Below are positions 23,409 through 64,000 of a stretch of 64,000 bases of DNA, piece after piece (positions within the stretch are counted from its first letter, which is position 1; each line of letters begins with the position of its first letter). The translations under genes were made by a program, and so were the position numbers. The stretch is from IMG/VR virus record IMGVR_UViG_3300033075_001021. The stretch is one strand, 5' to 3'. The DNA comes from a virus. Lineage: Duplodnaviria > Caudoviricetes. The notes beneath the pieces are model-generated. The model had not been told where the DNA came from, did not search any database, and saw nothing but the letters and a program-made list of their open reading frames with translations.

Positions 23409-23495
23409 TGGTGGCCCCGATGGGATTCGAACCCATGATGGTCTTGCGACATCAGTTTAAAAGACTGTTGGTATCAACCACTAACCGACGGAGCC
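23409..23495 (-). tRNA. tRNA-Lys(TTT) with long variable arm
   Basis: Loop CTTTTAA; variable arm TGTCGCAAGAC. Confidence 0.8.
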
Positions 23496-24376: not shown

Positions 24377-24492
24377 GTGGGGGCGGCTGGAATTGCACCA
24401 ACGTTTTTCAAATTTACAGTTTGTTGATTAAATTTGTTTTTGCTGCAAACATTCTTAACCAGAATGTATTAGTCTAACATTTCAACACCCCC
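24377..24492 (-). tRNA. tRNA-Tyr(GTA)-like with insertion in the D region
   Basis: Acceptor, CAAA CTGTAAA TTTG arm and T-like arm; D arm replaced by a CAGCAA-motif insert. Confidence 0.5.
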
Positions 24493-24615: not shown

Positions 24616-24699
24616 GAGCCTTCGGCCAGATTCGAACTGGCGGGGGATTACTCCGCTCGCTTACAAGGCGAGTGCAATCGACCACTATGCGACGAAGGC
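24616..24699 (-). tRNA. tRNA-Thr(TGT) with long variable arm
   Basis: Loop CTTGTAA. Confidence 0.8.
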
Positions 24700-24761: not shown

Positions 24762-24852
24762 GGTGCAGATGGAGAGAATCGAACTCTCGTCCGCTGGTTG
24801 GAAGCCAGCTATAATATGTCGTTAATTCGACGAACCACTATACGACATCTGC
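24762..24852 (-). tRNA. tRNA-Gly(TCC) with extra D-loop hairpin
   Basis: Loop CTTCCAA; GTCG-AATTAA-CGAC in D loop. Confidence 0.75.
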
Positions 24853-25662: not shown

Positions 25663-25750
25663 GTCGGGGTGACAGGAATCGAACCTGCGGGGAGACTTGC
25701 TCACTCGGCTCCAAACCGAGACCGCTACCTGACTACGGGCCTACACCCCG
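25663..25750 (-). tRNA. tRNA-Pro(TGG) with long variable arm
   Basis: Loop TTTGGAG. Confidence 0.8.
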
Positions 25751-25948: not shown

Positions 25949-26053
25949 TTACACCAAATCGATGTCTTTTACAGTATATAACATACCCAGTCCATTAAGA
26001 GGTGTGCCCCCTTGTGGTTTTTGTTTCGGTTGATATGTCGTATACTTTTTCAT
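25949..26053 (-). CDS. leader peptide MKKYTTYQPKQKPQGGTPLNGLGMLYTVKDIDLV
   Basis: Codons 2-18 are all K/Y/T/Q/P/G, matching the downstream tRNAs. Confidence 0.9.
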   Translation of the reverse strand: MKKYTTYQPKQKPQGGTPLNGLGMLYTVKDIDLV

Positions 26054-33385: not shown

Positions 33386-33473
33386 GTACCGCCGACGGGG
33401 GTCGAACCCGCACGTTCTTTTTCAGAACACCGCCTTGAAAGGGCGGCGACATAACCAATTAGTCGACAGCGGC
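33386..33473 (-). tRNA. tRNA-Glu(TTC) with long variable arm
   Basis: Variable arm GTTCT-GAAAA-AGAAC. Confidence 0.8.
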
Positions 33474-34360: not shown

Positions 34361-34448
34361 GCGGACCCTACGAGATTCGAACTCGCCTGTCAGATAAATC
34401 TGTTCTGGGTTGACAGCCCAGCGGCCACACCAAGCAGCCCCAGAGTCC
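34361..34448 (-). tRNA. tRNA-Asp(GTC) with long variable arm
   Basis: Variable arm CAGA-TTTA-TCTG. Confidence 0.8.
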
Positions 34449-38463: not shown

Positions 38464-38551
38464 GTAGAGATGGAAGGATTTGCACCCTCACGCTTATTCC
38501 TAAGCACAAGGCTTCTCGGCCTTGCGTGTCTACTAATTTCACCACATCTCA
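38464..38551 (-). tRNA. tRNA-Leu(GAG), C33
   Basis: Loop CCGAGAA. Confidence 0.75.
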
Positions 38552-39230: not shown

Positions 39231-39316
39231 GTGGGTCCACTCGGACTCGAACCGAGATTAACTGCTCGTCTCCACCTTGTAAGGATGGGATGTTTATCCT
39301 GTTACACCATGGACCC
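39231..39316 (-). tRNA. tRNA-Val(TAC) with long variable region
   Basis: Loop CTTACAA. Confidence 0.8.
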
Positions 39317-39893: not shown

Positions 39894-39981
39894 GAACCCA
39901 TGACAGGATTTGAACCTGTGGTGAGGGATAACCCTTACAGTTTTGCAGACTGTCATCTTCGGCCACTCGAATCACATGGGC
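39894..39981 (-). tRNA. tRNA-Cys(GCA) with long variable arm
   Basis: Variable arm AGGG-TTAT-CCCT. Confidence 0.8.
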
Positions 39982-48427: not shown

Positions 48428-49495
48428 TTATTTTAAACCAACTTCTTCATTTTGCTTTGCAAAGAAATATAGTCGGCATCTTTCAGAAACCTTTGAGTTA
48501 ATATCCTTTGGCTCCAACCCAGCTTCAGCAATGGTATCGCTTTCTTCCTTCATGATGTCTTGAACAACATTTCTGATAAAGTCACCCATCTTCTTGATGT
48601 CGATGCTACCACCGTTCATAAGGTCAAAGGTCTTGTCAAGCATTTGTTCCAAACGCCAGTCAGGTGTAACCTTATTAACCACATCGATAATCTTGTTTAG
48701 CTTAGCATCATCAACTGGCTTTAAGGTTGTTACCTTTGAAGCCTTGCTGTGCTTTTCACCCTTAGACTTGAAACGATAAACCTTACCTTCTGGAGTCATG
48801 TGTGAAAATACAACACCTTCACCAATACCCACGTGTCCGAAAGCCTTACCAACAGGACATTCTTCTTCAACCTCAAGAGTCATTTCAATTATCTTGTTTT
48901 GAGCCAATTGAGGCATATTGAAGTCGATTTCGACAGAATAGGTCTTGTAGTCTTCAATGTTGTAAATCCTAGCCTCTGGGCATCTTAAATCAGAAGAATC
49001 AACCCAATAAGCAACTGGCTTGTCATCTTCACTCTTTGGATGCGGAGTAATCTTCACACCAAAGATGAACATGGACTTATCAATGTTAGAGATTGCTACG
49101 CTCTTTTGAATACCCTTACCAGCCCACTCACCATAGATAGTGATAGTGTTTTCCTTCATGTCAAGATTATGCTTTAAGCTGATATGATAGAATAGGTTCT
49201 GGAACGCACCTCTGTTGGTTTCAACAAAGAACGCAGAGCCAGCATTATCCTTTTCAGGTGTAATGATGTTCTCTCTGGATTGAGCCCACATACCTTCCAA
49301 TTCGTTGTAGGACACACCGAAGTTGGTACCATGAAGCTTGATTGTACCCTTAAAAGTCAATACAGGCTTTGGTCTTGATGGGTCGTAAATGGCATCGCCA
49401 TTCTCGTCCAATCCAACGAAATTATAGCTCCTATTGATATCAGCAATCACGTTCTTGAATTGCTCGATGCTTGGAAATGATATATGCTTCTTCAT
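48428..49495 (-). CDS. Rnl2-family RNA ligase
   Basis: KLHGTN, YGEW, GEGVV, FKSK. Confidence 0.85.
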   Translation of the reverse strand: MKKHISFPSIEQFKNVIADINRSYNFVGLDENGDAIYDPSRPKPVLTFKGTIKLHGTNFGVSYNELEGMWAQSRENIITPEKDNAGSAFFVETNRGAFQNLFYHISLKHNLDMKENTITIYGEWAGKGIQKSVAISNIDKSMFIFGVKITPHPKSEDDKPVAYWVDSSDLRCPEARIYNIEDYKTYSVEIDFNMPQLAQNKIIEMTLEVEEECPVGKAFGHVGIGEGVVFSHMTPEGKVYRFKSKGEKHSKASKVTTLKPVDDAKLNKIIDVVNKVTPDWRLEQMLDKTFDLMNGGSIDIKKMGDFIRNVVQDIMKEESDTIAEAGLEPKDINSKVSERCRLYFFAKQNEEVGLK

Positions 49496-49533
49496 AGTTG
49501 CAAATATACGATTTTATTGTGAATAAATCAAGT

Positions 49534-50913
49534 TTACTTCAAACCTTTCGCCATGGCTTCAATCTCTTTGATTGATTCCAATGTATCGCAGGTGTTTTTA
49601 TCATCCCTAAGTGTCTTAAACACTGGGTGTAAAAGGGCATAGTTACCCTCAGAATCATTGGATAAACCGCAACACTTAACTTCAAGGATGGTGCCCAAAA
49701 GCTTATCTTGGTTATCCGTAATATACTGCATCATTTCTTCATTGATGCCAGTTGGACGAGTGAATACCTTGCCATCGGCTGATTCAGCATTTACACTGGA
49801 GATAACATTTGCGTTCTTACCAGTACCGTAGTTAAAACCAACAATCTTCAGGTCCACATCCATCTCCAACTTCATCTTAACTTGCCAGTTGGGTTTGCCA
49901 TCTTTCCATGTTCCTTCATAAGCTTTAAGGATAGTTCCTTCTTGACCTTGATTTAACATATCTTGGAAATGGCCCATAGCCTCATCATATGAATCAACAG
50001 CTTTGGTTTCAACAAGGCTAATCATGCTTGGTTTACGTTCAAACAGCATATCTGATACACGATTCAACCTTAAGTAGTAAGGTGTATCTGACTTCTGCTC
50101 AAAGTATTCGTCAACATGAATGGTATCCCATACGGTAAACCTGATGGCATCCAAAGCATCTTGATAATTCATATGTTTTTCTTCAAACTTCTTGATTTCT
50201 TTGGTTACATCTTCACCATCCAATTTCTTCTTACCAATGCTTACCAGAGATGCTACGATACCGTTGCTTTCATAACGACTGATACCATCCATGGTAAGTT
50301 CACCATTCAAAACACAATCCTCAAAACCAGCAAGTTCATCCAAGAACTTAGCACCAGTAAGAATTGTTGGTTCACCTTGACGACTTTCCAATTCAACATC
50401 ACCAGAACGAATAATAGCGTTGCAATAACGGCCATCCATTTTGATTTGGCTGTAACCCTTACCACCTTTTTCAAAAATCTTTTTAGCCAGCTTTTCATCA
50501 TAGGATTTAGCACCCATGTAAGGTGTTTCTTCAATGAGCTTCGGGAAAACCTTATTGATAAGACTTGTACCTAGGTTCATCTTACAATCCTTTTCGATGA
50601 TACGCTCAATGATATAAGCATCGTCAGCATCACATAAAGATAAAATTGCTGATAAGTGTAAAAGAGCCGCCTTACCTGTAAGTGTTCTTTCACTCAATAA
50701 AGATAACGCATCTAATGCATCTGTTAAGTCATGTGATAAGATTGATTTATCATAAGATGGTACCTGTTTGATATAGAACTTTACACGCTTGCTGTTGGCA
50801 AGATATAACACCTGCTTTAACAGGTCGTTATCTTTGTATTTACTCAGGATTTCAACTTTCTTTTTGGTTGATGATTCGCCAGCGATTTCATCAAAGATTT
50901 GTTTGATTTTCAT
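49534..50913 (-). CDS. ATP-dependent DNA ligase
   Basis: KMDGRY, LNGEL, EGTILK, KMK, LLHPVF..RDDK. Confidence 0.9.
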   Translation of the reverse strand: MKIKQIFDEIAGESSTKKKVEILSKYKDNDLLKQVLYLANSKRVKFYIKQVPSYDKSILSHDLTDALDALSLLSERTLTGKAALLHLSAILSLCDADDAYIIERIIEKDCKMNLGTSLINKVFPKLIEETPYMGAKSYDEKLAKKIFEKGGKGYSQIKMDGRYCNAIIRSGDVELESRQGEPTILTGAKFLDELAGFEDCVLNGELTMDGISRYESNGIVASLVSIGKKKLDGEDVTKEIKKFEEKHMNYQDALDAIRFTVWDTIHVDEYFEQKSDTPYYLRLNRVSDMLFERKPSMISLVETKAVDSYDEAMGHFQDMLNQGQEGTILKAYEGTWKDGKPNWQVKMKLEMDVDLKIVGFNYGTGKNANVISSVNAESADGKVFTRPTGINEEMMQYITDNQDKLLGTILEVKCCGLSNDSEGNYALLHPVFKTLRDDKNTCDTLESIKEIEAMAKGLK

Positions 50914-51080
50914 CTTTTTTATATCGATTTTTTTTAACGATTATTGTTGCAGATTGATTTTTATCTGGTTTGGTTGTTTTTATTGATATCACTCGCATAT
51001 TCATGACAGTCGATATATCAATTGGTTTTTTGTTCTTCATATGCAAATATATGGGGAATCTTTCGATTCCCCAAATTTTT

Positions 51081-52214
51081 TTACAACATTTTGTACAATT
51101 TTTTATCATCGTACTCCATCATGTATTCCTTTATGGTTCCAACCTTGCCTGTTTGAAGTGCGAAATACAAGCCTGTAAAGGAATCCAGACCCATTTTCTT
51201 TGTAACTTCGAATACCGCAGTAGCATACGCTTTCCTTTCGGCAGCTGTTATGTTCTTTGGCTTTCTTGGTTCCAATTCAACCCAAGCTTCGTTAAGCTTA
51301 GCTATCAACGCATCGTAGCTAGCCTTTAACCTGAAGATTTCTTCACGTCTTTCTGGGAAAGTCGCAGCAAATTCTTCGATTTCATTGGCTTTAACGACAG
51401 TCAATATGTTATGCTCAGCAGTTTTTGACTTTAAGTGGTGAACCGCAACATACGCTGGGTTCTTGATTTTAACACGATTGAAGTTACCGTCCACAACCAC
51501 ATAACCTTCTTCAGACCATGGCATACCTTCAAATGTTCTTATCAAAGCACCGAAGTCCTTTGCGTTCAAATCAAAAGCTTTAACCAACGGGATACCAGTC
51601 AACAAAGAAAAGTTTTTCAACACTTCATAGTTGTCCTCAACCAAAGTTTCTGCATTTCTTGCGGCCAATAATGTAATAGATGATTCACCGTGAGGCTTTA
51701 CTACTATATTATATGGTGTTGTTAATTCAAATACAAAGGTTGTTTTCTTGAAAGACTTGAACAATGATTTCTCAATATTATACTTTTCTTTCAATACCTT
51801 CCAGAATAACTCATTGAAAGTAGTTCCCATCTTGTTGTTTACTTCCCCTTCACCTTCAGCAGTACCAGTAGTTGCAGCAAACCATTCTTGCTTATGCCAA
51901 TCCCAATAAACTTGAATCATTGTACCATCGACTTTTTCAAGTACAACGGCAGAATTCCAGTCTATCTTAGCGGCTTGTGATTCACCGTGATTGAAGAACT
52001 TTCTGAATGACATAGACATAACCTTCCATGTATCCCTTTCAAGAATAAGACCACGACAGTCTTGTACCTCTGGGCATGACATATCAGATTCAATTTGGTC
52101 ATATTTCAAATGAATCTTTGAGGTATATGTACGACATTTTAATTTAAAATCTTGTATTGCCTTAGCTAACCCAAATTTTTTTATATACTTAACTACTGAT
52201 AACTCCTGTATCAT
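51081..52214 (-). CDS. Rnl1 (T4 RnlA-like) RNA ligase
   Basis: DCRGLI, KFFNHGE, EKVDGT, FEL, EGYVV, RVKIKN. Confidence 0.9.
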   Translation of the reverse strand: MIQELSVVKYIKKFGLAKAIQDFKLKCRTYTSKIHLKYDQIESDMSCPEVQDCRGLILERDTWKVMSMSFRKFFNHGESQAAKIDWNSAVVLEKVDGTMIQVYWDWHKQEWFAATTGTAEGEGEVNNKMGTTFNELFWKVLKEKYNIEKSLFKSFKKTTFVFELTTPYNIVVKPHGESSITLLAARNAETLVEDNYEVLKNFSLLTGIPLVKAFDLNAKDFGALIRTFEGMPWSEEGYVVVDGNFNRVKIKNPAYVAVHHLKSKTAEHNILTVVKANEIEEFAATFPERREEIFRLKASYDALIAKLNEAWVELEPRKPKNITAAERKAYATAVFEVTKKMGLDSFTGLYFALQTGKVGTIKEYMMEYDDKKLYKML

Positions 52215-52938
52215 TATTTCTTTTTTTATGTGACTCTGAAATTTTTCTTTTTGTTTCTTCACTCAAAACACGCCCACTTCTTTTTTTACTTTGTTCAATT
52301 TTTAATTGTATTGCCGCATCAACACCCATAATTTCTTCATACGTTTTACCTTTATTCGGATTTTTCCACCCTTTTCTAGCCTTAGATAAACTTTCTTTAT
52401 GTTTATCTGACATTGGTTTTTTCTTTCCTTTATTAGATTCTGAAATTTTTCTTTTTGTTTCCTCACTTAAAGGACGAAATTTTTTCTTTTTACCTTTTAA
52501 TAATTCCGACATTTTTTTTGCTGTTTCTGATGCCCACGGTTTTTGTTTTCCTTTATGTGCATCACTTATTTTTTTCTTATGTTCATCAGTTAATTTTTTA
52601 CCTTTATGAAATTTTGAAACATTAGCTCGAAGAACTTCTTTTTTAGGGTTATTTGAAAATGTATCACCCCCAGTGCCCCCCTCTGCAATATTATAACCAC
52701 CAATATTTTTACTAATAAACTCTTTTTCTTTTTCGTTTAAAGTATCGATATTGTCACATTCAAATATTATTTCCCATTTAAAATTATGAAAACCATATTT
52801 TTTAATCGCATTATAAAATAACCATTTCTTTTTATTAAAGGCTAATTTATGTGATTGTATTCTTTTTTCTAATGTCCCCTTTGTTTTACCAATATAAAAT
52901 TTACCATTTATTGTGTTGGTTGCTTTGTAAATTATCAT
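52189..52938 (-). CDS. GIY-YIG homing endonuclease with NUMOD3 repeats
   Basis: IYKATNTINGKFYIGKT, GYNIAEGG, SEETKRKISES repeats. Confidence 0.9.
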   Translation of the reverse strand: MIIYKATNTINGKFYIGKTKGTLEKRIQSHKLAFNKKKWLFYNAIKKYGFHNFKWEIIFECDNIDTLNEKEKEFISKNIGGYNIAEGGTGGDTFSNNPKKEVLRANVSKFHKGKKLTDEHKKKISDAHKGKQKPWASETAKKMSELLKGKKKKFRPLSEETKRKISESNKGKKKPMSDKHKESLSKARKGWKNPNKGKTYEEIMGVDAAIQLKIEQSKKRSGRVLSEETKRKISESHKKRNNDTGVISS

Positions 52939-52995
52939 AGATTTTAATTTATATTATGTTATATAATATAAATATACTCAAATTGTAATTTAGTT

Positions 52996-53115
52996 TCATG
53001 AACCACAAACATATTTCAAATGAATCTTGTTTTCATACACTTTAGCCTTAAGCTTGAATTTTTCAATAGCTTTAGCTAAACCATTTTCCTCAATAAATTT
53101 TATTATCGCTAACAT
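52996..53115 (-). pseudogene. orphaned original 5' end of the Rnl1 gene
   Basis: MLAIIKFIEENGLAKAIEKFKLKAKVYENKIHLKYVCGS*; 19-bp direct repeat at 52100-52118 and 53010-53028. Confidence 0.9.
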
Positions 53116-53118
53116 GAG

Positions 53119-53367
53119 CTATTCTTTAAACGTTCTACAATATTGTTGGTAATCCTCAAGCCATAATTGATATAAACAGAATTCGCAGCTGTGTTTTTGG
53201 CCCGTGCAGTCGCCATAATGACGACCATCATAGGGCTTCTTGCCTTCAGATAGGATATTTGTGTGGATACGTTTTACCCATTGAATAACATCCTCTCTGG
53301 ACATTTCAAAGGGTAAATCATCGACTTGTGTTTCTTTCTCAACAAGCCAATCTATAAAACATTTCAT
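53119..53367 (-). CDS. hypothetical protein
   Basis: HYGDCT..SCEFC. Confidence 0.6.
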   Translation of the reverse strand: MKCFIDWLVEKETQVDDLPFEMSREDVIQWVKRIHTNILSEGKKPYDGRHYGDCTGQKHSCEFCLYQLWLEDYQQYCRTFKE

Positions 53368-53369
53368 CT

Positions 53370-53443
53370 TGTAGGACCATCAAGAATCGAACTTGAATCT
53401 AGAGCTTAGAAGGCACTCGTTCTATCCATTGAACTATGGTCCC
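53370..53443 (-). tRNA. tRNA-Arg(TCT)
   Basis: Cloverleaf. Confidence 0.85.
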
Positions 53444-53557
53444 ATATGGGCTGCTAAGTAATTTCAGGACCGTCTCCGTGTAGTACCTCTTCCCTCGCTT
53501 ACCCGTCAGTAAGCTACTCTTGGCACTCTCTACCACCTTAGCACTAATTAAGCCCAA

Positions 53558-53920
53558 TTATTTTGTTTCTGAATCACCAGAATCTTTCGGCTGTTCTTCT
53601 TTTCCTTCAGATTTCTTAGTTTGTGGTTCATCCTTTTTTGGGGTTGTTCTTTTCTTTAAGAGAAGTTGAGCTAAAATTTTTCTTTCCAGTTTTTCAGCCT
53701 CTGTTCCTTCTTCGAGTATTCTTTTAGCCGCAAACATAGCACAAAGTTCAGAGAAGATAAACATATCTTCATCACTTACAATTAATTTACTTATTAAAAG
53801 CATAATTGTGCCCGATTGCGCTACCGTGTAATCTTTACCACCAGTTCCTTCATCTATAAGGGCTTGACCCATTTGTTTGATTTTTCCGCTAAGTTCTGTA
53901 CGCCTTGTTTCGTTTTCCAT
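53558..53920 (-). CDS. hypothetical protein
   Basis: ORF behind promoter. Confidence 0.65.
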   Translation of the reverse strand: MENETRRTELSGKIKQMGQALIDEGTGGKDYTVAQSGTIMLLISKLIVSDEDMFIFSELCAMFAAKRILEEGTEAEKLERKILAQLLLKKRTTPKKDEPQTKKSEGKEEQPKDSGDSETK

Positions 53921-53965
53921 AATATATTTTTACAAATATACCACATAAATTTTAAATCTCCAAAT

Positions 53966-54895
53966 TTATTTTGAAATATTTGTTACAACACCACGAATTT
54001 TTATTTTTTGTGTTGGTTTCCAATCAGTTATTTGATTTGACATGACAGGTTTACCGCCATTTGGATTCACTGCTAACGTAACATGAGGAATCGCATTTTT
54101 TGATGGATATCCATTAACTTCTAAAGCAATTGCCATATCACTTTTACCTAAACGCTTAGTTGTCAAGCCAACTTCTTTACCTAAATCCTCTTTATTAGCG
54201 CTTTTTCCAAATTCAATTGTCATGTGATGGCCAATAAAATTCCATCCATCTGGAATTTCATCTTTATACATGCGATAAAGCATATTCCTTGATATTTCAT
54301 CCAACACAACACCTGAATACAAGATATTGGAATCGGGATACATATCCTTAGATTCCAATATCTTCTTAAGTGTTAACGGACCCACACTCTTATGTGTCTT
54401 AACCATTTGTTCAATTTTGTCAAATGGAACACCATGCTGATTCCTTGCTGCCAAGGCTTCAGTTGTTAATCCACCAGTACCAATGTCAACAATTTGGATA
54501 TTTTCATCTGCGTACCCCAACTTCAATGCATGTACAACGTAAGCCTTAGCCTCGTTTGCCTTTAAGTTGGTGTTGTCAATAACAACTGGTGAAATTCCTT
54601 CATCCATTGACCTTTTAGCATTGGTAAGGTTTTTTGAGTGCATACGACTAAGGTCAATAAAGTTTTTAGATTCATTCATCTTAGCGAAAAAGCCTCTGTA
54701 ATCACCAGTTGCTTCAATCAAGTTGTCGGTTGAGTGTATAACACCTTCGCCAACCAAAGACTTAGCTTTGGTTGACTTGCCGCCACCAGATATTCCACGC
54801 ATGATAACCAATACCTTATCTGGTCTTGTTACAGGTACACCCAATGAGTTCTTTTGAACTTCTTCACGTAATATTTCTTTGATTTTATTCTTCAT
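53966..54895 (-). CDS. polynucleotide kinase plus 2',3'-cyclic phosphodiesterase fusion (RNA end healing)
   Basis: GISGGGKST, IDNTN, RNQHGVP; HHMTI and PHVTL. Confidence 0.8.
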   Translation of the reverse strand: MKNKIKEILREEVQKNSLGVPVTRPDKVLVIMRGISGGGKSTKAKSLVGEGVIHSTDNLIEATGDYRGFFAKMNESKNFIDLSRMHSKNLTNAKRSMDEGISPVVIDNTNLKANEAKAYVVHALKLGYADENIQIVDIGTGGLTTEALAARNQHGVPFDKIEQMVKTHKSVGPLTLKKILESKDMYPDSNILYSGVVLDEISRNMLYRMYKDEIPDGWNFIGHHMTIEFGKSANKEDLGKEVGLTTKRLGKSDMAIALEVNGYPSKNAIPHVTLAVNPNGGKPVMSNQITDWKPTQKIKIRGVVTNISK

Positions 54896-56567: not shown

Positions 56568-56659
56568 GCGGAGAACAGCGGAGTCGAACCGCACCCAGCT
56601 TCTTAAGCCGAGCGTCACGCTTAGCAGGCGGACCCCCTCACCGTCAGGGTTTGCTCTCC
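56568..56659 (-). tRNA. tRNA-Ser(GCT)
   Basis: Type II cloverleaf. Confidence 0.85.
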
Positions 56660-56664
56660 GTAGT

Positions 56665-56738
56665 GTAGTCCCAAAGGGATTCGAACCCCTATAGTCTGCT
56701 TAGAAGGCAGACGTCCTATCCAGTTGAACGATGGAACC
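56665..56738 (-). tRNA. tRNA-Arg(TCT)
   Basis: Cloverleaf. Confidence 0.9.
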
Positions 56739-56742
56739 ATTC

Positions 56743-56834
56743 TGGACCGCTAGGCGGGATTCGAACCCACATTTGATATTATCGCAGCTCCAATTACAGA
56801 TAACGGTTTAGAAGACCGATTTGGCTACAAGCGG
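56743..56834 (-). tRNA. D-armless tRNA-Arg(TCT)-like RNA
   Basis: Acceptor, 8-nt linker, CTTCTAA arm, long variable region, T arm, CCA. Confidence 0.65.
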
Positions 56835-56879
56835 ATGTGTGAATTTATTTGACTTGATTAACAATATCACTAAAAAGTA

Positions 56880-56953
56880 GGTGGCCTCGGCGGGGGTCGA
56901 ACCCACAACAAACGTTTAGGAAACGCTTATGATAACCATTTCACCACGAAGCC
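56880..56953 (-). tRNA. tRNA-Arg(CCT)
   Basis: Cloverleaf. Confidence 0.85.
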
Positions 56954-56955
56954 AT

Positions 56956-56984
56956 TGGTAGTCCCAGAAGGATTCGAACCCTCT
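56956..56984 (-). pseudogene. 3' fragment of a split tRNA-Arg(ACG)
   Basis: GAGGGTTCGAATCCTTC TGGGACT ACCA; pairs with GGTCTCA of 57522-57566. Confidence 0.8.
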
Positions 56985-57396
56985 AATTATTTTCAACATA
57001 GTGTAATTTTCTATGGCAATTTGAACATAAAATAATACACTTCTCAACTTCCCTCATTATTTTTTCAAGACTGTATGTGTTATAGATTAAATTTGAAACT
57101 TCAAATTCTTTACTATTCCTATCTTGATGATGAAAATCTAAACAGGCTATATGTGTTTCGCCACATTTTTCGCATTTTAGTTTAGACTTAAAATCACGAT
57201 ACCATTCTTGGTTTCTTTTCTTATTTTTTAGATTTCTATTTAGCGTTGTTTGTTTATTACGGTTGTAAGATTCTTTTCTAATTTCTTTCCAACATAATAC
57301 ACAAGCGCTATGATAAACACCATTTTTTTTATTTTTAAAAGGAAATTGATTCAACTCTTTTTCCTTTTTACACCTTGAACAAAATTTTCTTTCCAT
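56983..57396 (-). CDS. HNH endonuclease (tRNA-associated; start MERKF)
   Basis: CEKCGETHIACLDFHH..CSNCHRKLH. Confidence 0.85.
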   Translation of the reverse strand: MERKFCSRCKKEKELNQFPFKNKKNGVYHSACVLCWKEIRKESYNRNKQTTLNRNLKNKKRNQEWYRDFKSKLKCEKCGETHIACLDFHHQDRNSKEFEVSNLIYNTYSLEKIMREVEKCIILCSNCHRKLHYVENN

Positions 57397-57442
57397 AACT
57401 TTTTTTAATAAATATTGCGAATTATTAAAAAAGTTCGTAACT

Positions 57443-57519
57443 GTGACCTTAGAGGGATTCGAACCCACCACTTCTCTTGGTTCGTAGCCAAGTGTTTTAT
57501 CCAGTTAAACTATAAGGTC
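57443..57519 (-). tRNA. tRNA-Arg(ACG), replacement copy on the HNH element
   Basis: Complete cloverleaf. Confidence 0.85.
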
Positions 57520-57521
57520 AT

Positions 57522-57566
57522 ATCTGATTCGTAGTCAGGTGCTTTATCCAGTTAAGCTATGAGACC
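57522..57566 (-). pseudogene. 5' fragment of a split tRNA-Arg(ACG)
   Basis: GGTCTCATAGCTTAACTGGATAAAGCACCTGACTACGAATCAG. Confidence 0.8.
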
Positions 57567-57570
57567 ATTT

Positions 57571-57645
57571 GTGGTTCCAGAAGGATTCGAACCCTCACCA
57601 AACTTACTTCGAAGGCAAGTATGCTGTCCATTACACCATGGAACC
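57571..57645 (-). tRNA. tRNA-Arg(TCG)
   Basis: Cloverleaf. Confidence 0.85.
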
Positions 57646-57819
57646 ATTAATATTCCCAACCCTTATGTTTTATGTTAGGAATTTCGGTTTTAGGAACCCT
57701 GCGAATCTTACGGTTGCGCTGGTTCTTTAACCATTTTCTTGAATGTGACTTATGACCAAGAAATCTTTCAAGATGTTCAATCTTTTCTAAACATAAACTC
57801 ATAAAATAAGATTATTTTA

Positions 57820-57890
57820 GTCGCGTAGAAGGGAGTCGAACCCTCTTGGCCTGCCTTATGAGAGCTGGCTGTATTCCAATAACCTACGCA
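57820..57890 (-). tRNA. tRNA-Met(CAT) with reduced D arm
   Basis: Loop CTCATAA. Confidence 0.65.
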
Positions 57891-57900
57891 ATGTGGTTAA

Positions 57901-57975
57901 GCGGGTCAGGTGAGAGTCGAACTCACATCTCGCAACTTAACAGGTTGCCGTTTTAACCATTAGTACTACCGACCC
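57901..57975 (-). tRNA. tRNA-Asn(GTT)
   Basis: Cloverleaf. Confidence 0.85.
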
Positions 57976-58040
57976 ATGAGCCCCGTAATTCAATTTCATT
58001 ATCGTATCCCAAACGGGGCCACAAGAATACGATTCCAATT

Positions 58041-58113
58041 GAGGACTGTGAGAATTTCGAAATCTCGACCCGCACCTTAACAGGGTGCCGCTCTGCCTCT
58101 GAGCTAACAGTCC
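58041..58113 (-). tRNA. tRNA-Asn(GTT)
   Basis: Cloverleaf. Confidence 0.85.
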
Positions 58114-58183
58114 ATTGGTGTCCATGAACGTTTTAAACCGTGTGTGCCCCATGGACAGAGTGCTCACAACCTTCTATCTTTAT

Positions 58184-58474
58184 TTAATCTTTAATGATTA
58201 AATGTATATCAACCCCATTGACTGAATTATTAAAATGTAAAAATGATTTCTCAATATCAATCAGTGTGAAATCATAATCGACAATTTCAACATAATAATT
58301 TTTATCAATTTGTTTACAACCGTTATTTTTTAATTGTACCGAATTAAATATTTCGTCACCTTTTTGTGTATTAAAAAATGCCCAGATTGTATCTAACTTA
58401 TTTAATTGTGAACACATGTTATCAATGTATTCTTTAGTTTGGTTTTCAAACCCTAAAATTTTTATCAAATTCAT
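58184..58474 (-). CDS. hypothetical protein
   Basis: ORF after endonuclease. Confidence 0.55.
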   Translation of the reverse strand: MNLIKILGFENQTKEYIDNMCSQLNKLDTIWAFFNTQKGDEIFNSVQLKNNGCKQIDKNYYVEIVDYDFTLIDIEKSFLHFNNSVNGVDIHLIIKD

Positions 58475-58475
58475 A

Positions 58476-59123
58476 TTATTTACGACCTTTTAGCCAGCCG
58501 TCCAATATATAAGTATGTAACTCGTCAAGTTTTACTTTTTTGTTAATCCCATCCTTAGTTATCCAGCAGGTACCATATTGAGAGTTCGTTTTTCCAATAC
58601 CGTAACCTACTTTCTTTTGGCTCATCAATTTTTTTGTTTCCTCTGAATGTGACATTCCTAAAAATCCAGAGCTACCAATATGATTGTGGTTTCCACTTTG
58701 ATATGTTTTACGAACACTTTCACTTAGCTTTCTTTTCCATTCTTCATAAAATTTTTTATCTGTTTTTAACTTAGTTGTAAACGCTTTATTTCCTTCTCTA
58801 CAACAATTAATTTTTTGTTCTTCAGTTAAGAAACCTCCAGTACCACCTAAACCTAAATTCATACATTTGTCATCTTGTATCAACTCTAAATTTACAATAG
58901 CTTTTTCACGCTCAATTAATAATTCTCTACTTTCACAGAACTCCAAGATTTCTTTTATATGGTTCTCTTTACCATATTTCCTGATGCTATATCTAAGACG
59001 TTTCCCACTTCCCATGTAACCATCGTCAAGATTACTGGTACTATGCATTCCGATATAATATCTACCAGTGACCACACAAGTGGTTTTATAGATATAGTGT
59101 ATGTTTGCTTTTTGCCTTCCCAT
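58476..59123 (-). CDS. GIY-YIG (Seg-like) homing endonuclease (start MGRQK)
   Basis: YIYKTT..YYIGMHST..DGYMGSG, HSEETKKLMS. Confidence 0.85.
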   Translation of the reverse strand: MGRQKANIHYIYKTTCVVTGRYYIGMHSTSNLDDGYMGSGKRLRYSIRKYGKENHIKEILEFCESRELLIEREKAIVNLELIQDDKCMNLGLGGTGGFLTEEQKINCCREGNKAFTTKLKTDKKFYEEWKRKLSESVRKTYQSGNHNHIGSSGFLGMSHSEETKKLMSQKKVGYGIGKTNSQYGTCWITKDGINKKVKLDELHTYILDGWLKGRK

Positions 59124-59157
59124 ATAAATAAATATACGGGAAGTACAAAAAAGTCGA

Positions 59158-59245
59158 TGGAGGATTGGGTGGGATTCGAACCCACGATGGTCTTGCGACA
59201 CTGGGTTAACAGCCCAGACTTTTCGGCCTCTAAAGCAACCAATCC
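59158..59245 (-). tRNA. tRNA-Asn(GTT) with long variable arm
   Basis: Variable arm TGTCGCAAGAC, CCA. Confidence 0.8.
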
Positions 59246-59250
59246 ATTAT

Positions 59251-59342
59251 GTCGTGCAGATGGGATTCGAACCCACATTTGATGTTATCTCAAGATGCCA
59301 GTTACAAGTGTGATGTATATAAGACACCGCTGCTACTGCACG
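59251..59342 (-). tRNA. D-armless tRNA-Ile(TAT)-like RNA
   Basis: Same architecture as 56743-56834. Confidence 0.6.
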
Positions 59343-59627: not shown

Positions 59628-59806
59628 GAAAATAAAAGTATTTTTTAATAGTAGATATTCATCGATTGATAATTCTTTTGCTAAAATCATGTCAATCTTC
59701 TCAACATCTATATTCGGCGTATTAAGGATTTTGAATAAAACTTCTAATGTTTTATCCTTAGATACACCAGCATCTTTAAATGCCTCTATTAGTTTCTCTA
59801 TCATTG

Positions 59807-59888
59807 TTGTGCCCGTGGGAGTCGAACCCACCTTGTTCCGAAGAACCCACCGTATCAGGATGGTGCCTAAACCGCTCGACCAGAGCAC
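59807..59888 (-). tRNA. tRNA-Ile(GAT) with long variable arm
   Basis: Variable arm GTTC-TTCG-GAAC. Confidence 0.8.
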
Positions 59889-59894
59889 AATATT

Positions 59895-60041: not shown

Positions 60042-60133
60042 GGGCGCATGATGGGATTCGAACCCACGGTGTTTGATATAATCTCATTCTGGTTCACAGC
60101 CAGATTCCATCGACCACTAGGACAACACACGCC
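60042..60133 (-). tRNA. tRNA-His(GTG) with long variable region
   Basis: Loop CTGTGAA. Confidence 0.75.
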
Positions 60134-60580: not shown

Positions 60581-60672
60581 GCGGAAGCGGACGGATTCGA
60601 ACCCTCAGACGATATTGCTACCGCCCCACTGTTTTCAAGACAGGGCCCCGCACCAATGGGGTCAGCGCTTCC
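60581..60672 (-). tRNA. tRNA-Ser(TGA)
   Basis: Type II cloverleaf. Confidence 0.9.
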
Positions 60673-61334: not shown

Positions 61335-61367
61335 AAAAAAGCCTCTGGATTTTAGGTCAGAGGCTTT
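61335..61367 (-). terminator. attenuator terminator of the RINHMSW tRNA operon
   Basis: AAGCCTCTG-loop-CAGAGGCTT followed by T-tract. Confidence 0.85.
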
Positions 61368-61395: not shown

Positions 61396-61494
61396 TTATC
61401 CCCAAGTATCGTCACTATTAAGCATGACCTGTCCGTTTGAATTACTACGTATAATCCAATTAATCGAATTCATATGTCTGTTAATAGTTCTCAT
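61396..61494 (-). CDS. leader peptide MRTINRHMNSINWIIRSNSNGQVMLNSDDTWG
   Basis: 19 of the first 20 codons are R/I/N/H/M/S/W, matching the downstream tRNAs. Confidence 0.9.
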   Translation of the reverse strand: MRTINRHMNSINWIIRSNSNGQVMLNSDDTWG

Positions 61495-62783: not shown

Positions 62784-63941
62784 TTACAACAATTTTTGAA
62801 AATTATTATATTCAGCCCTAGCGATTGCGTCTCCAAGCTCTTTACCCTGCTTTAAACCATGTGTTTTCATTAGTTCTTCACCAGAAACTGTCAATTTGAA
62901 TACTATAAAAGCTTTAAGTAGCTTAGAATCAATATTTTCATGACCGCCAAATTTACTAATCTGACCATCTGTTACACCTGAAACTTTTTGCATTCTTTTA
63001 AGCTGAACAGCTGTTTCAGGTGTAAGATTTAACAAATTAAGTAAAAATGTAATACCTCTAATTTCGTCAACGGTATATTTCAAGTTGTTTAGTTGTTTAG
63101 AAACAACGCTTGGATTATTCCCAACCAAAAGAGTGCTGATAACCAGAATAGGGTCTCTTTCTTCAAGAAAATCGTTGTTTACTCTCAATCCTTTGAATAT
63201 CCAATCAAACAGACCATATTTGTCAATAAGGCTCAAAAAGTGTTTAACAGACTTAGCTGATTGGATACCTTTGATAAACTCATCGCGAATCCTTTCACCT
63301 GAAATACCATCAAGACTAGCATCGTTTCTTAATGCAGAGTCAACCTGAGGGTCCAAACCTGACCCAAACCTACCAGCAAATCTTATAGCTCTAAGAATTC
63401 TAAGTCTATCTTCGTTAAACCTTTCTTCAGGGGTACCCACGGTTCTTACTACACCGTTTTTAAGGTCTTCTATGCCACCCACAAGGTCAACAACCTCATG
63501 GGTATCTATGTCATAAAAAAGGGCGTTAATAGTCAAATCTCGACGTTTAACATCATTCTCTATGTTGGTGAACTTTACGGAATCTGGTCTTCGAGAATCA
63601 GAAGACCCAATATCTTCACGAAAAGTAGCGATTTCGTATTCCCCTTGGTTGGTAAAAACATTGATTACACCAAACGCTTTACCTGTTGGGAGTGTCCTGA
63701 ACCCAGCTTGGGCCATGATTTGTTCAACCCTATCTGGAAGGGCGTCAGTGGCCAAATCAAAGTCTTTTGGCTGTTTACCCAACAAAGCATCACGCACAGC
63801 ACCACCAACAACATAAAGCTTATGGCCGTTATTTTTAAAAACGTCCTTTATAGCCAATATATCGCTAGGTATGTTGATATCGTATTTAACCCTATTTTCC
63901 ATTAGTTTGAAACGCAATGATTCGCGTATAAAATTTTTCAT
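62784..63941 (-). CDS. cca: CCA-adding tRNA nucleotidyltransferase (class II)
   Basis: VGGAVRD..KDFDLAT, EIATFR, RRDLTINA, EDRLRILRAIRF, SGERIRDE. Confidence 0.9.
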   Translation of the reverse strand: MKNFIRESLRFKLMENRVKYDINIPSDILAIKDVFKNNGHKLYVVGGAVRDALLGKQPKDFDLATDALPDRVEQIMAQAGFRTLPTGKAFGVINVFTNQGEYEIATFREDIGSSDSRRPDSVKFTNIENDVKRRDLTINALFYDIDTHEVVDLVGGIEDLKNGVVRTVGTPEERFNEDRLRILRAIRFAGRFGSGLDPQVDSALRNDASLDGISGERIRDEFIKGIQSAKSVKHFLSLIDKYGLFDWIFKGLRVNNDFLEERDPILVISTLLVGNNPSVVSKQLNNLKYTVDEIRGITFLLNLLNLTPETAVQLKRMQKVSGVTDGQISKFGGHENIDSKLLKAFIVFKLTVSGEELMKTHGLKQGKELGDAIARAEYNNFQKLL

Positions 63942-64000
63942 TCTATACAAAGATACACCATTTTTATCAGACGACAAAATCTTTTTAGGCATATTTTCGT

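What the first reader, a model, noticed from the sequence alone, without database searches (positions are those of the whole stretch)
56743..59342. Two D-armless tRNA-like RNAs with a D-loop-like motif moved behind the anticodon arm
56743-56834 (TCT) and 59251-59342 (TAT) both run: acceptor, TAGC linker, anticodon arm, TGTAAYTGG..GATAAYATCAAA, T arm TGTGGGTTCGAATCCC. The AAYTGG D-loop-like signature sits in the variable region. Their anticodons read AGA and ATA, both present in the operon leader, and both fit the operon's amino-acid set. This could be a rewired tRNA fold.
Basis: partly seen in the sequence, partly recalled or inferred. Interest (0 to 1): 0.7.

Follow-up and report, generated by a model that had tools for sequence, protein, structure and literature searches.

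The report
Rewired phage tRNAs for Ile and Arg
Both flagged elements are real genes from a large, phage-borne family of isoleucine and arginine tRNAs whose D-loop lies after the anticodon arm instead of before it, which suggests the cloverleaf is not the only layout bacterial translation may accept.

Summary
RNA1 (56834-56746, minus strand, anticodon TCT, CCA encoded at 56745-56743) and RNA2 (59342-59252, minus strand, TAT) lie in a 56-tRNA array of a 35% GC huge-phage-like contig. RNA1 sits in the Arg block and RNA2 next to the Ile block.

They are not isolated. Pattern scans and a covariance model found 127 distinct relatives, 75-92 nt long, in viral and metagenome contigs. Anticodons are only Ile (GAT, TAT), CAT, Arg (TCT, TCG, CCT, ACG) and one TCA.

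They are not truly D-armless. Three nucleotides after U8-A pair with three nucleotides 3' of the anticodon arm. This short D-like helix encloses the anticodon arm and is followed by U-A14-R15-Y-G18-G19.

- Helices covary: 96.6% of cells paired against 72.8% in shuffles.
- R15 and the base before the T stem covary as a Levitt pair in 126 of 127 sequences, with about 17 independent switches.
- A20, the ArgRS identity base, is present in 52 of 52 Arg members and in none of the 74 Ile and CAT members.

The best reading is working tRNAs with a permuted core. Expression and charging are untested. ARAGORN misses them; Rfam scores them at or below threshold.

I found no paper describing this layout. 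This scan has reported the same family before on other DNA, Felix O1 included, which I re-checked.

The parts
56746..56834 (-). RNA1: rewired tRNA-Arg(UCU)-type gene, long form, 89 nt
   Evidence: R1 model 52.7 bits; Rfam tRNA 29.0 bits with the D arm deleted; segment parse
56743..56745 (-). Encoded CCA after discriminator T of RNA1
   Evidence: Sequence
56828..56834 (-). RNA1 acceptor 5' strand CCGCTTG, pairing with 56747-56753 (CTAGCGG); one U6xU67 mismatch
   Evidence: U-U at this pair is seen in 8 of 63 family members
56821..56823 (-). RNA1 D-like helix 5' strand CAA, pairing with CTG at 56797-56799 (C-G, A-U, then an AxC mismatch)
   Evidence: A-U here against G-C in relatives L079 and L064 is a two-sided change
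56802..56820 (-). RNA1 anticodon arm: 6-layer stem ATCGGT/ACCGTT, loop CTTCTAA (56808-56814), anticodon TCT (56810-56812)
56789..56796 (-). RNA1 displaced D-loop: U, A14, A15, UU, G18, G19, A20
   Evidence: A15 with U48 (56771) fits the Levitt rule. A20 is present in all 52 Arg-type members
56772..56788 (-). RNA1 long-form insert GC-TGC-GATAATA-TCA-AA, between A20 and U48
   Evidence: Invariant GATARYATCA motif; the hairpin is not supported by covariation
56754..56770 (-). RNA1 T arm GTGGG-TTCGAAT-CCCGC
59252..59342 (-). RNA2: rewired tRNA-Ile(UAU)-type gene, long form, 91 nt, discriminator A, no encoded CCA
   Evidence: R1 model 92.9 bits; Rfam tRNA 24.7 bits, below threshold; parse
59336..59342 (-). 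RNA2 acceptor 5' strand CGTGCAG, pairing perfectly with 59253-59259
59330..59332 (-). RNA2 D-like helix 5' strand CAG, pairing with TTG at 59305-59307 (C-G, A-U, G.U)
59311..59329 (-). RNA2 anticodon arm: stem CGGTGT/ACATCA, loop CTTATAT (59317-59323), anticodon TAT (59319-59321)
59297..59304 (-). RNA2 displaced D-loop: U, A14, A15, CU, G18, G19, C20
   Evidence: A15 with U48 (59277) fits the Levitt rule
59278..59296 (-). RNA2 long-form insert ATCT-TGA-GATAACA-TCA-AA
59260..59276 (-). RNA2 T arm GTGGG-TTCGAAT-CCCAT

Best explanation
RNA1 and RNA2 are most likely working phage tRNAs. RNA1 would decode AGA as Arg and RNA2 would decode AUA as Ile. Both belong to a conserved family with a permuted core.

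The order along the chain is:
1. Acceptor 5' strand.
2. U8-A.
3. The descending D-stem strand, which runs straight into the anticodon arm (a 26-44-like layer plus a 5-bp stem and a 7-nt loop with U33 and A37).
4. A 2-3 nt bulge.
5. The ascending D-stem strand.
6. U-A14-R15-Y16(17)-G18-G19-N20.
7. A connector. In these two long forms it carries a conserved GATARYATCA insert.
8. Y48, then the T arm, then the acceptor 3' strand.

In canonical numbering, segments 10-20 and 21-47 have swapped places.

Shown here: the family exists, the helices covary, the Levitt pair covaries, and identity bases track the anticodon.

Inferred from the known tRNA 3D structure (my own knowledge):
- The new joins connect positions that are already neighbours in the canonical fold: U8 next to A21/22, and 44-45 next to 10.
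- The normal L shape, the 12-bp acceptor/T minihelix and the anticodon-to-elbow distance (3-4 plus 6 stacked layers) can therefore be kept.
- RNase P, the CCA enzyme, IleRS or ArgRS, EF-Tu and the ribosome could then still use these RNAs.

Why phages keep this layout beside ordinary copies is unknown. My guess, weakly held, is escape from nucleases that target tRNAs.
For: Family:
- 63 distinct long forms were recovered by pattern scans.
- A generic scanner found 127 distinct long and short forms.
- 89 of 90 held stretches also carry ordinary tRNAs, median 7 per stretch.

Structure:
- On a plain MAFFT alignment of 39 Ile-type members, 96.6% of cells pair against 72.8% in shuffles. Covariation is 0.672 against 0.201, and slid controls pair at about 40%.
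- For 24 Arg-type members, 91.5% pair against 66.5%.
- RNAalifold, unguided, predicts the acceptor, the D-like helix, the anticodon stem and the T arm.
- Unbiased MI-APC ranks exactly these pairs on top. R15-Y48 ranks 13th and nucleotide 35 with N20 ranks 15th.

Tertiary contact and identity:
- R15/Y48 is A/U in 74 sequences, G/C in 52 and mismatched in 1.
- On a tree with those columns masked, R15 changes 17 times, and 8 of 8 supported independent pairs switch together.
- A20 is present in 52 of 52 Arg-type members and 0 of 74 Ile and CAT members. The discriminator is A in all 67 Ile-type members. Position 37 is A in all 63 long forms, and the scanner required U33 and a purine at 37.

Demand and context:
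- In the window's ORFs, AGA is 45% of Arg codons and ATA is 27% of Ile codons.
- The window has no ordinary TAT tRNA.
- Only 8 of 64 stretches with a rewired TAT also hold an ARAGORN-detected TAT tRNA.
- A CCA-adding enzyme is encoded at 62784-63992.
Against: - There is no evidence of transcription, processing, aminoacylation or decoding.
- Single-sequence folding is not distinctive. Z-scores are -0.55 for RNA1 and -1.64 for RNA2, and the minimum-energy folds differ from the consensus.
- No 3D model could be made, so retention of the L shape is inference.
- The A20-to-anticodon link rests on only about 2 changes on the tree, so it is weak as independent evidence.
- RNA1 is redundant with two ordinary tRNA-Arg(TCT) genes. 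It has only 2 Watson-Crick pairs in the D-like helix, a U-U mismatch in the acceptor, and a discriminator U.
- Most phages carry rewired and ordinary isoacceptors side by side, so the rewired copies are not obviously required.
- The fourth D-layer (N opposite the invariant U) is mostly C/U or U/U.
- In Arg-type members, an alternative pairing of CCRA with UUGG is nearly as compatible.
Confidence: 0.74

Rival explanations
1. The RNAs are tRNA look-alikes that are made but do not decode. They would act as decoys or sponges for host tRNA-cleaving defence nucleases, or as ligands for phage tRNA repair or modification enzymes.
For: - They coexist with ordinary copies of the same anticodon.
- The window carries Rnl1-like and Rnl2-like ligases, a kinase-like protein and a CCA enzyme. 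This fits an arms race over tRNAs.
- The invariant GATARYATCA insert looks like a binding site rather than a structural need, because short forms lack it.
Against: - A decoy needs neither a Levitt pair that co-switches about 17 times, nor A20 tied to C35, nor A73 in all Ile types.
- A decoy also needs no intact 12-bp acceptor/T minihelix with rich compensation.
- The rewired TAT gene is usually the only TAT tRNA in the held stretch.
Confidence: 0.13
2. The RNAs are truly D-armless tRNAs of the mitochondrial kind, as the first reader drew them. There would be a short D-replacement linker and a long, independently folded variable region, with no helix closing around the anticodon arm.
For: - The Rfam tRNA model aligns RNA1 in just this way, with the D arm deleted and a 29-nt insert in the variable region.
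- The D-like helix is only 2-3 bp. In RNA1 it has 2 Watson-Crick pairs plus an AxC mismatch.
Against: - The two inner pairs of the helix are Watson-Crick in 39 of 39 Ile-type and 23 of 23 Arg-type long forms, with G-C, A-U, C-G and U-A variants.
- The D5(2)-D3(2) pair ranks 6th among all column pairs by MI-APC.
- RNAalifold predicts the helix without guidance.
Confidence: 0.06
3. One or both window copies are decaying pseudogenes of the family. RNA1 is the more likely case, being a redundant and slightly defective copy.
For: - RNA1 scores 52.7 bits against 92.9 for RNA2. The model was built from Ile types, which explains part of the gap.
- RNA1 has a U6xU67 mismatch, an AxC in the D-like helix, and TGC instead of TGA before the insert.
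- Two ordinary tRNA-Arg(TCT) genes lie nearby.
Against: - Every one of these 'defects' is shared by a subgroup of distinct sequences (L080, L079, L064, L119, L128).
- Against L080, RNA1 differs only by three compensatory pairs and one acceptor base. There is no change in the 57-nt core.
- U-U at pair 6-67 occurs in 8 of 63 members.
Confidence: 0.07

Closest known systems
Canonical class I bacterial and phage tRNA-Ile and tRNA-Arg (Rfam RF00005), e.g. the window's own tRNA-Arg(TCT) at 56665-56738
   Same: They share a 7-bp acceptor, a 5-bp T stem with a TTCRANY loop, and a 5-bp anticodon stem with U33 and A37. They also share U8, A14, R15-Y48, G18 and G19. A20 is present in Arg types and A73 in Ile types. 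Both kinds lie in tRNA arrays.
   Different: The D-stem strands lie on either side of the anticodon arm, and the D-loop follows the 3' strand. The RNA has three helical branches from the acceptor rather than a four-arm cloverleaf. Rfam scores are 24.7-29.0 bits here, against 43-72 bits for ordinary neighbours.
D-armless mitochondrial tRNAs (e.g. mt-tRNA-Ser(AGY); PMC9427863, PMC4013460)
   Same: No hairpin lies between the acceptor and the anticodon stem, only a 4-5 nt connector.
   Different: Mitochondrial forms lose the D-loop and its contacts and are short. Here the D-loop motif, the G18-G19 pair of bases and the Levitt pair are all retained, only relocated, and the RNAs are 75-92 nt long.
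Class II tRNAs and allo-tRNAs with long variable arms or 8/4 and 9/3 branches (Mukai et al. 2017, PMC5389517)
   Same: Extra sequence lies between the anticodon arm and the T arm. They are non-standard tRNAs found in phages and metagenomes, and UAU is a frequent anticodon among allo-tRNAs.
   Different: Those tRNAs keep a normal D arm in its normal place and change the acceptor/T split. Here the split is 7/5 and the D arm is permuted.
Permuted tRNA genes of red and green algae (from my own knowledge, Soma et al. 2007; not checked here)
   Same: tRNA segments lie in a non-standard order in the gene.
   Different: In the algal genes the 3' half precedes the 5' half, and a circular intermediate restores a normal cloverleaf. 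Here the acceptor strands are at the two ends, and no splicing or circularisation can restore the canonical order.

Membership tests
Canonical tRNA (Rfam RF00005) | Score at or above the curated gathering threshold (29 bits) | tested here: inconclusive
   RNA1 scores 29.0 bits, exactly at threshold, and is not listed in the whole-window gathering run. RNA2 scores 24.7 bits, below threshold. 13 of 36 relatives pass, at 30-42 bits.
Canonical tRNA (Rfam RF00005) | D arm (stem 10-13/22-25 with its own loop) between position 9 and the anticodon arm | tested here: not met
   Only 4-5 nt lie there. cmscan deletes the 15 model positions of the D arm. ARAGORN finds neither RNA, and 0 of 22 relatives.
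Canonical tRNA (Rfam RF00005) | 7-bp acceptor, 5-bp T stem with T loop, 5-bp anticodon stem with a 7-nt loop carrying U33 and R37 | tested here: met
Canonical tRNA (Rfam RF00005) | Core tertiary signature: U8, A14, R15-Y48 Levitt pair, G18 and G19 | tested here: met
   All are invariant or covarying: 126 of 127 sequences obey the Levitt rule, with 17 switches on the tree. They are present in a different order along the chain. The physical contacts themselves were not tested.
Rewired phage Ile/Arg tRNA family (as defined here by model R1) | D-like helix enclosing the anticodon arm, followed by U-A-R-Y-G-G, with Y48 before the T arm | tested here: met
   RNA2 scores 92.9 bits and RNA1 52.7 bits, against 31 bits or less for ordinary tRNAs. 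The segment parse fits both.
Rewired phage Ile/Arg tRNA family, long form | GATARYATCA insert between N20 and Y48 | tested here: met
   GATAATATCA in RNA1 and GATAACATCA in RNA2.
D-armless mitochondrial-type tRNA | Loss of the D-loop and of D-loop/T-loop contacts; short length | tested here: not met
   The D-loop motif is retained and the Levitt pair covaries. ARAGORN in mitochondrial modes finds nothing.
tRNA with an intron, or a permuted tRNA gene | Removing or rejoining a segment yields a canonical cloverleaf | tested here: not met
   ARAGORN intron mode finds nothing. By inspection, no single excision leaves both a D arm and an anticodon arm, and the acceptor strands are already at the ends.
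tmRNA or YrlA tRNA-like RNAs | Match to the family covariance model | tested here: not met
   The tmRNA model matches only 15 nt of the T arm, at 10.9 bits. YrlA scores 12.6 bits against a threshold of 69. The Stenotrophomonas phage blast hits are tmRNA 3' ends that share only the T arm.
Functional aminoacyl-tRNA (Arg or Ile) | Expressed, CCA-tailed, charged, and used by the ribosome | not testable with these tools
Only indirect sequence evidence is available.

The most novel reading that the evidence does not exclude
Bacterial translation accepts a second, non-cloverleaf way of wiring an L-shaped tRNA. Phages keep this rewired version of Ile and Arg tRNAs beside ordinary copies because the altered core escapes tRNA-targeting nucleases, whether host defence enzymes or the phage's own host-shutoff enzymes, while still being charged and decoded.
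Probability: 0.3. Interest if true: 0.92.

Novelty: new variant of a known kind. Interest (0 to 1): 0.8.

Why it matters
If these RNAs are charged and decoded, the cloverleaf connectivity is not a requirement of bacterial translation. Only the three-dimensional arrangement of its parts would be required. That would give a natural test case for what RNase P, the CCA enzyme, ArgRS, IleRS, EF-Tu and the ribosome really read in a tRNA. It would also give a new scaffold for engineered or orthogonal tRNAs.

There are practical consequences too. Phage tRNA counts are underestimated, because ARAGORN found 0 of 22 members and Rfam found 13 of 36. Phages thought to lack an AUA or AGA decoder may in fact have one. 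In Felix O1 the gene is unannotated and is overlapped by the start of a predicted CDS.

Felix O1 is cultivable, so the question can be tested directly.

Tried and rejected
- ARAGORN with relaxed thresholds gave implausible folds (Asp atc, Val cac) that use the anticodon hairpin as a D arm. Its mitochondrial and intron modes found nothing.
- An intron in the D arm is rejected, because excision leaves no anticodon arm.
- blastn of RNA2 against 50,697 phage records gave no match.
- blastn of L010 hit Stenotrophomonas, Streptomyces and other phages only over the T arm. In the two Stenotrophomonas records I inspected, the matches lie at annotated tmRNA or pseudo-tRNA features and share only the T arm, so they are not relatives.
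- An alternative helix, CCRA with UUGG (G18 and G19 paired), is compatible in Arg types. It fails in Ile types: the outer pairs form in 21 of 39 and 11 of 39, and pair 3 in 31 of 39. The D-like inner pairs form in all sequences.
- A hairpin TTGA/TCAA around GATARYA has invariant pairs, a closing pair broken in 18 of 63 sequences, and is not predicted by RNAalifold. It remains unresolved.
- Single-sequence minimum-energy folding was uninformative.
- The whole-genome search was not possible, because no genome is held for this window.
- tblastn of the 639-aa ORF against phages gave no match.
- Six literature searches and three papers read gave no description of this layout. This shows only that it is absent from the searched library.
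Full report
**What is there.** The window is a 35% GC stretch with 56 ARAGORN tRNAs, all on the minus strand and grouped by amino acid. No whole genome is held for it.
- The best DNA and protein matches are uncultured phages of 484-636 kb.
- PHROG and Pfam matches show phage helicases, a DNA transfer protein and homing endonucleases. They also show a tRNA toolkit: an Rnl2-like ligase, a T4 Rnl1-like ligase, a kinase-like protein and a CCA-adding enzyme.
- RNA1 (56834-56746, followed by CCA) lies between tRNA-Arg(CCT) and tRNA-Arg(TCT).
- RNA2 (59342-59252) lies just downstream of tRNA-Met(CAT) and two tRNA-Ile(GAT) genes.
- ARAGORN misses both. Rfam's tRNA model aligns RNA1 at 29.0 bits by deleting the D arm, and RNA2 at 24.7 bits.

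**Relatives.** Exact-pattern scans built on the conserved GATARYATCAAA-plus-T-arm motif found relatives as follows.
- Viral contigs yielded matches in three scans.
- Metagenome contigs yielded 118 stretches, of which 80 were fetched.
- 63 distinct full-length sequences of 88-92 nt parse into one common plan. Their anticodons are TAT 33, TCT 20, GAT 6, TCG 2, ACG 1 and TCA 1.
- In one genome each of 185,579 prokaryote species, the same pattern gave 22 matches. Only one is a true member, on a 2.4-kb MAG contig. The long form is therefore essentially viral.
- A covariance model built from the 39 Ile-type sequences (R1) finds only RNA2 (92.9 bits) and RNA1 (52.7 bits) above the ordinary-tRNA background of 31 bits or less in the window.
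- In the fetched loci, R1 also finds short forms of 75-82 nt that lack the insert.
- A generic scanner for the architecture, with any anticodon allowed, recovers 127 distinct sequences. Their anticodons are only GAT, TAT, CAT, TCT, TCG, CCT, ACG and one TCA.

**The fold.** The common plan along the chain is:
1. Acceptor 5' strand (7 nt).
2. U-A.
3. 1-2 nt.
4. A 3-nt strand.
5. A six-layer stem whose outer layer behaves like 26-44 (U-A, G.U, CxA, GxA).
6. A 7-nt loop with U33 and A37.
7. The returning stem strand.
8. A bulge of 2-3 nt.
9. A 3-nt strand complementary to the first.
10. An invariant U.
11. A-R-Y(Y)-G-G-N.
12. A connector.
13. Y, then the T arm, then the acceptor 3' strand, then the discriminator.

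The evidence for this fold:
- On a plain MAFFT alignment of the Ile types (A1), the structure pairs in 96.6% of cells against 72.8% in shuffles. The covariation score is 0.672 against 0.201, and partners slid by one to three columns pair at about 40%.
- The Arg types (A2) give 91.5% against 66.5%.
- The short helix that closes around the anticodon arm has its two inner pairs Watson-Crick in all 62 parsed Ile- and Arg-class long forms, with G-C, A-U, C-G and U-A variants.
- RNAalifold predicts that helix without guidance.
- In an unbiased MI-APC ranking of all column pairs over 127 sequences, the top ranks are exactly the proposed pairs.

The RNAs are therefore not D-armless. The D stem is present, but its strands lie on either side of the anticodon arm.

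**The displaced D-loop is functional.**
- The second base of the A-R-Y-G-G motif and the base before the T stem are A/U in 74 sequences, G/C in 52 and mismatched in one.
- On a tree built with those columns masked, R15 changes 17 times and Y48 18 times. All 8 well-supported independent pairs switch together, sign test p about 0.008.
- This is the behaviour of the Levitt pair R15-Y48. It is an isolated pair: its neighbours do not covary.
- The base after G-G is A in 52 of 52 Arg-anticodon members and in none of the 74 Ile and CAT members. A20 is the major ArgRS identity element in E. coli (established knowledge; see the identity review PMC9976931, which I did not re-read).
- On the tree this link rests on only about two changes, so it is consistent with the reading rather than independent proof.
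- The discriminator is A in all 67 Ile types.

**Mapping and mechanism (inference).**
- In canonical numbering the chain runs 1-8, then 21-47, then 10-20, then a connector, then 48-76.
- From the known tRNA structure, U8 lies against A21/22, and 44-45 lie against the 10-25 pair. The new joins therefore connect neighbours.
- The stacked D-like helix plus anticodon stem has 9-10 layers, as in a normal tRNA.
- The acceptor/T minihelix that RNase P, the CCA enzyme and EF-Tu read is intact.
- I therefore think these are working tRNAs. RNA2 would be the phage's only UAU tRNA, since the window has no ordinary one. ATA makes up 27% of Ile codons in the window's ORFs.
- RNA1 would be a third AGA reader. 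AGA makes up 45% of Arg codons.
- RNA2 lacks an encoded CCA, and a CCA-adding enzyme is encoded 3.4 kb away.

**The two window copies.**
- RNA2 is a typical member.
- RNA1 has a U6xU67 mismatch, an AxC at the third D-like pair, and TGC instead of TGA before the insert.
- A subgroup of distinct sequences shares each of these traits.
- Against its nearest relative, L080, RNA1 differs only by three two-sided compensatory changes and one acceptor base. This points to selection on structure, not decay.

**What remains open.**
- Expression and charging are untested.
- The GATARYATCA insert that defines the long form is invariant in sequence, and its hairpin is not supported. It lies where a variable arm would be, and it may be a protein-binding site.
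- Most phages carry rewired and ordinary isoacceptors together. In this window many other amino acids also have two versions, one ordinary and one with a long variable arm. This suggests deliberate structural diversification of tRNAs, possibly against tRNA-targeting defences. That is speculation.

**Prior knowledge.**
- Six full-text searches and three papers gave no description of this layout.
- After I had reached my own reading, the scan's notebook showed that other agents have reported the same family on other DNA since October 2026.
- One of those notes says that a later check of the same claim on other DNA found that part of it fell. It does not say which part.
- I therefore keep two claims narrow. 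'Gene finders miss it' holds for ARAGORN (0 of 22), but Rfam's model passes 13 of 36 at low scores. 'Viral only' was tested for the long-form motif only.
- I re-checked the Felix O1 lead. R1 scores 39.2 bits at NC_005282 25951-26029, against 25 bits or less for that phage's annotated tRNAs. The site is unannotated and runs into the start of an HNH CDS.
- Pseudomonas phage IME180 carries one too, at 44.4 bits.

Noticed in passing
window 23409-23495, 24616-24699, 33386-33473, 34361-34448, 39231-39316, 39894-39981, 59158-59245, 59806-59889, 60042-60132 (all minus strand): Nine tRNAs for class I amino acids (Lys, Thr, Glu, Asp, Val, Cys, Asn, Ile, His) are 84-91 nt long and have a hairpin in the variable region. 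Most sit beside an ordinary-length copy with the same anticodon. The Lys and Asn copies share the arm GTCGCAAGAC.
   Followed up: partly
window 24764-24852 (-), 25664-25750 (-), 24378-24492 (-): Three further tRNA-like genes are missed by ARAGORN but hit weakly by model R1. They have paired acceptor ends and T arms. One has a Gly-type loop CTTCCAA and an extra hairpin after the D-loop. One has a Pro-type loop TTTGGAG. One is 115 nt long.
   Followed up: no
window 56568-56659 (-) and 60583-60672 (-): tRNA-Ser(GCT) is drawn by ARAGORN with an 8-bp acceptor and a 4-bp T stem. tRNA-Ser(TGA) passes the Rfam tRNA-Sec threshold (54.4 against 47 bits). This looks like the 8/4 phage tRNA-Ser of Mukai et al. 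(PMC5389517).
   Followed up: no
window 38464-38551 (-): A Leu-like tRNA with a 6-nt anticodon loop, reported by ARAGORN as tRNA-??? (ag). Rfam scores it 33.5 bits.
   Followed up: no
window 48428-54895 and 62784-63992 (-): A tRNA repair and maturation set: Rnl2-like RNA ligase, ATP-dependent DNA ligase, T4 Rnl1-like ligase, an AAA_33 kinase-like protein and a CCA-adding enzyme.
   Followed up: partly
window 52189-52938, 56983-57471, 58476-59201 (-): GIY-YIG, HNH and another homing endonuclease gene are interspersed among the tRNA genes. The last two flank the stretch that holds RNA1 and RNA2.
   Followed up: partly
window 61396-61494 (-) with a hairpin and U run at about 61336-61366: A small ORF (MRTINRHMNSINWIIRSN...) rich in codons for the amino acids of the downstream tRNA block, followed by a terminator-like hairpin. 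It contains AGA and ATA codons. The attenuator idea was not tested.
   Followed up: partly
L009:440-527 (+): A long-form rewired member with loop CTTCAAA (anticodon TCA, which reads UGA) and the Arg-type A20. It is a possible opal suppressor derived from an Arg tRNA.
   Followed up: no
L008:4761-4837, L020:11809-11885, L127:9868-9944 and four others: Seven distinct 77-nt rewired members have anticodon CAT, an Ile-like U20 and A73. They could be lysidine-dependent Ile tRNAs or Met tRNAs.
   Followed up: no
L187 (Felix O1, NC_005282) 25951-26029: An unannotated rewired tRNA-Arg(TCT)-type gene. The annotated HNH endonuclease CDS starting at 26003 overlaps its 3' part, so that start codon may be mis-called.
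   Followed up: partly
L017 and L018 (Stenotrophomonas phages Ps15 and Marzo): The same locus is annotated as a pseudo tRNA-OTHER in one record and as a tmRNA in another. The sequence looks like a two-piece (permuted) tmRNA.
   Followed up: no
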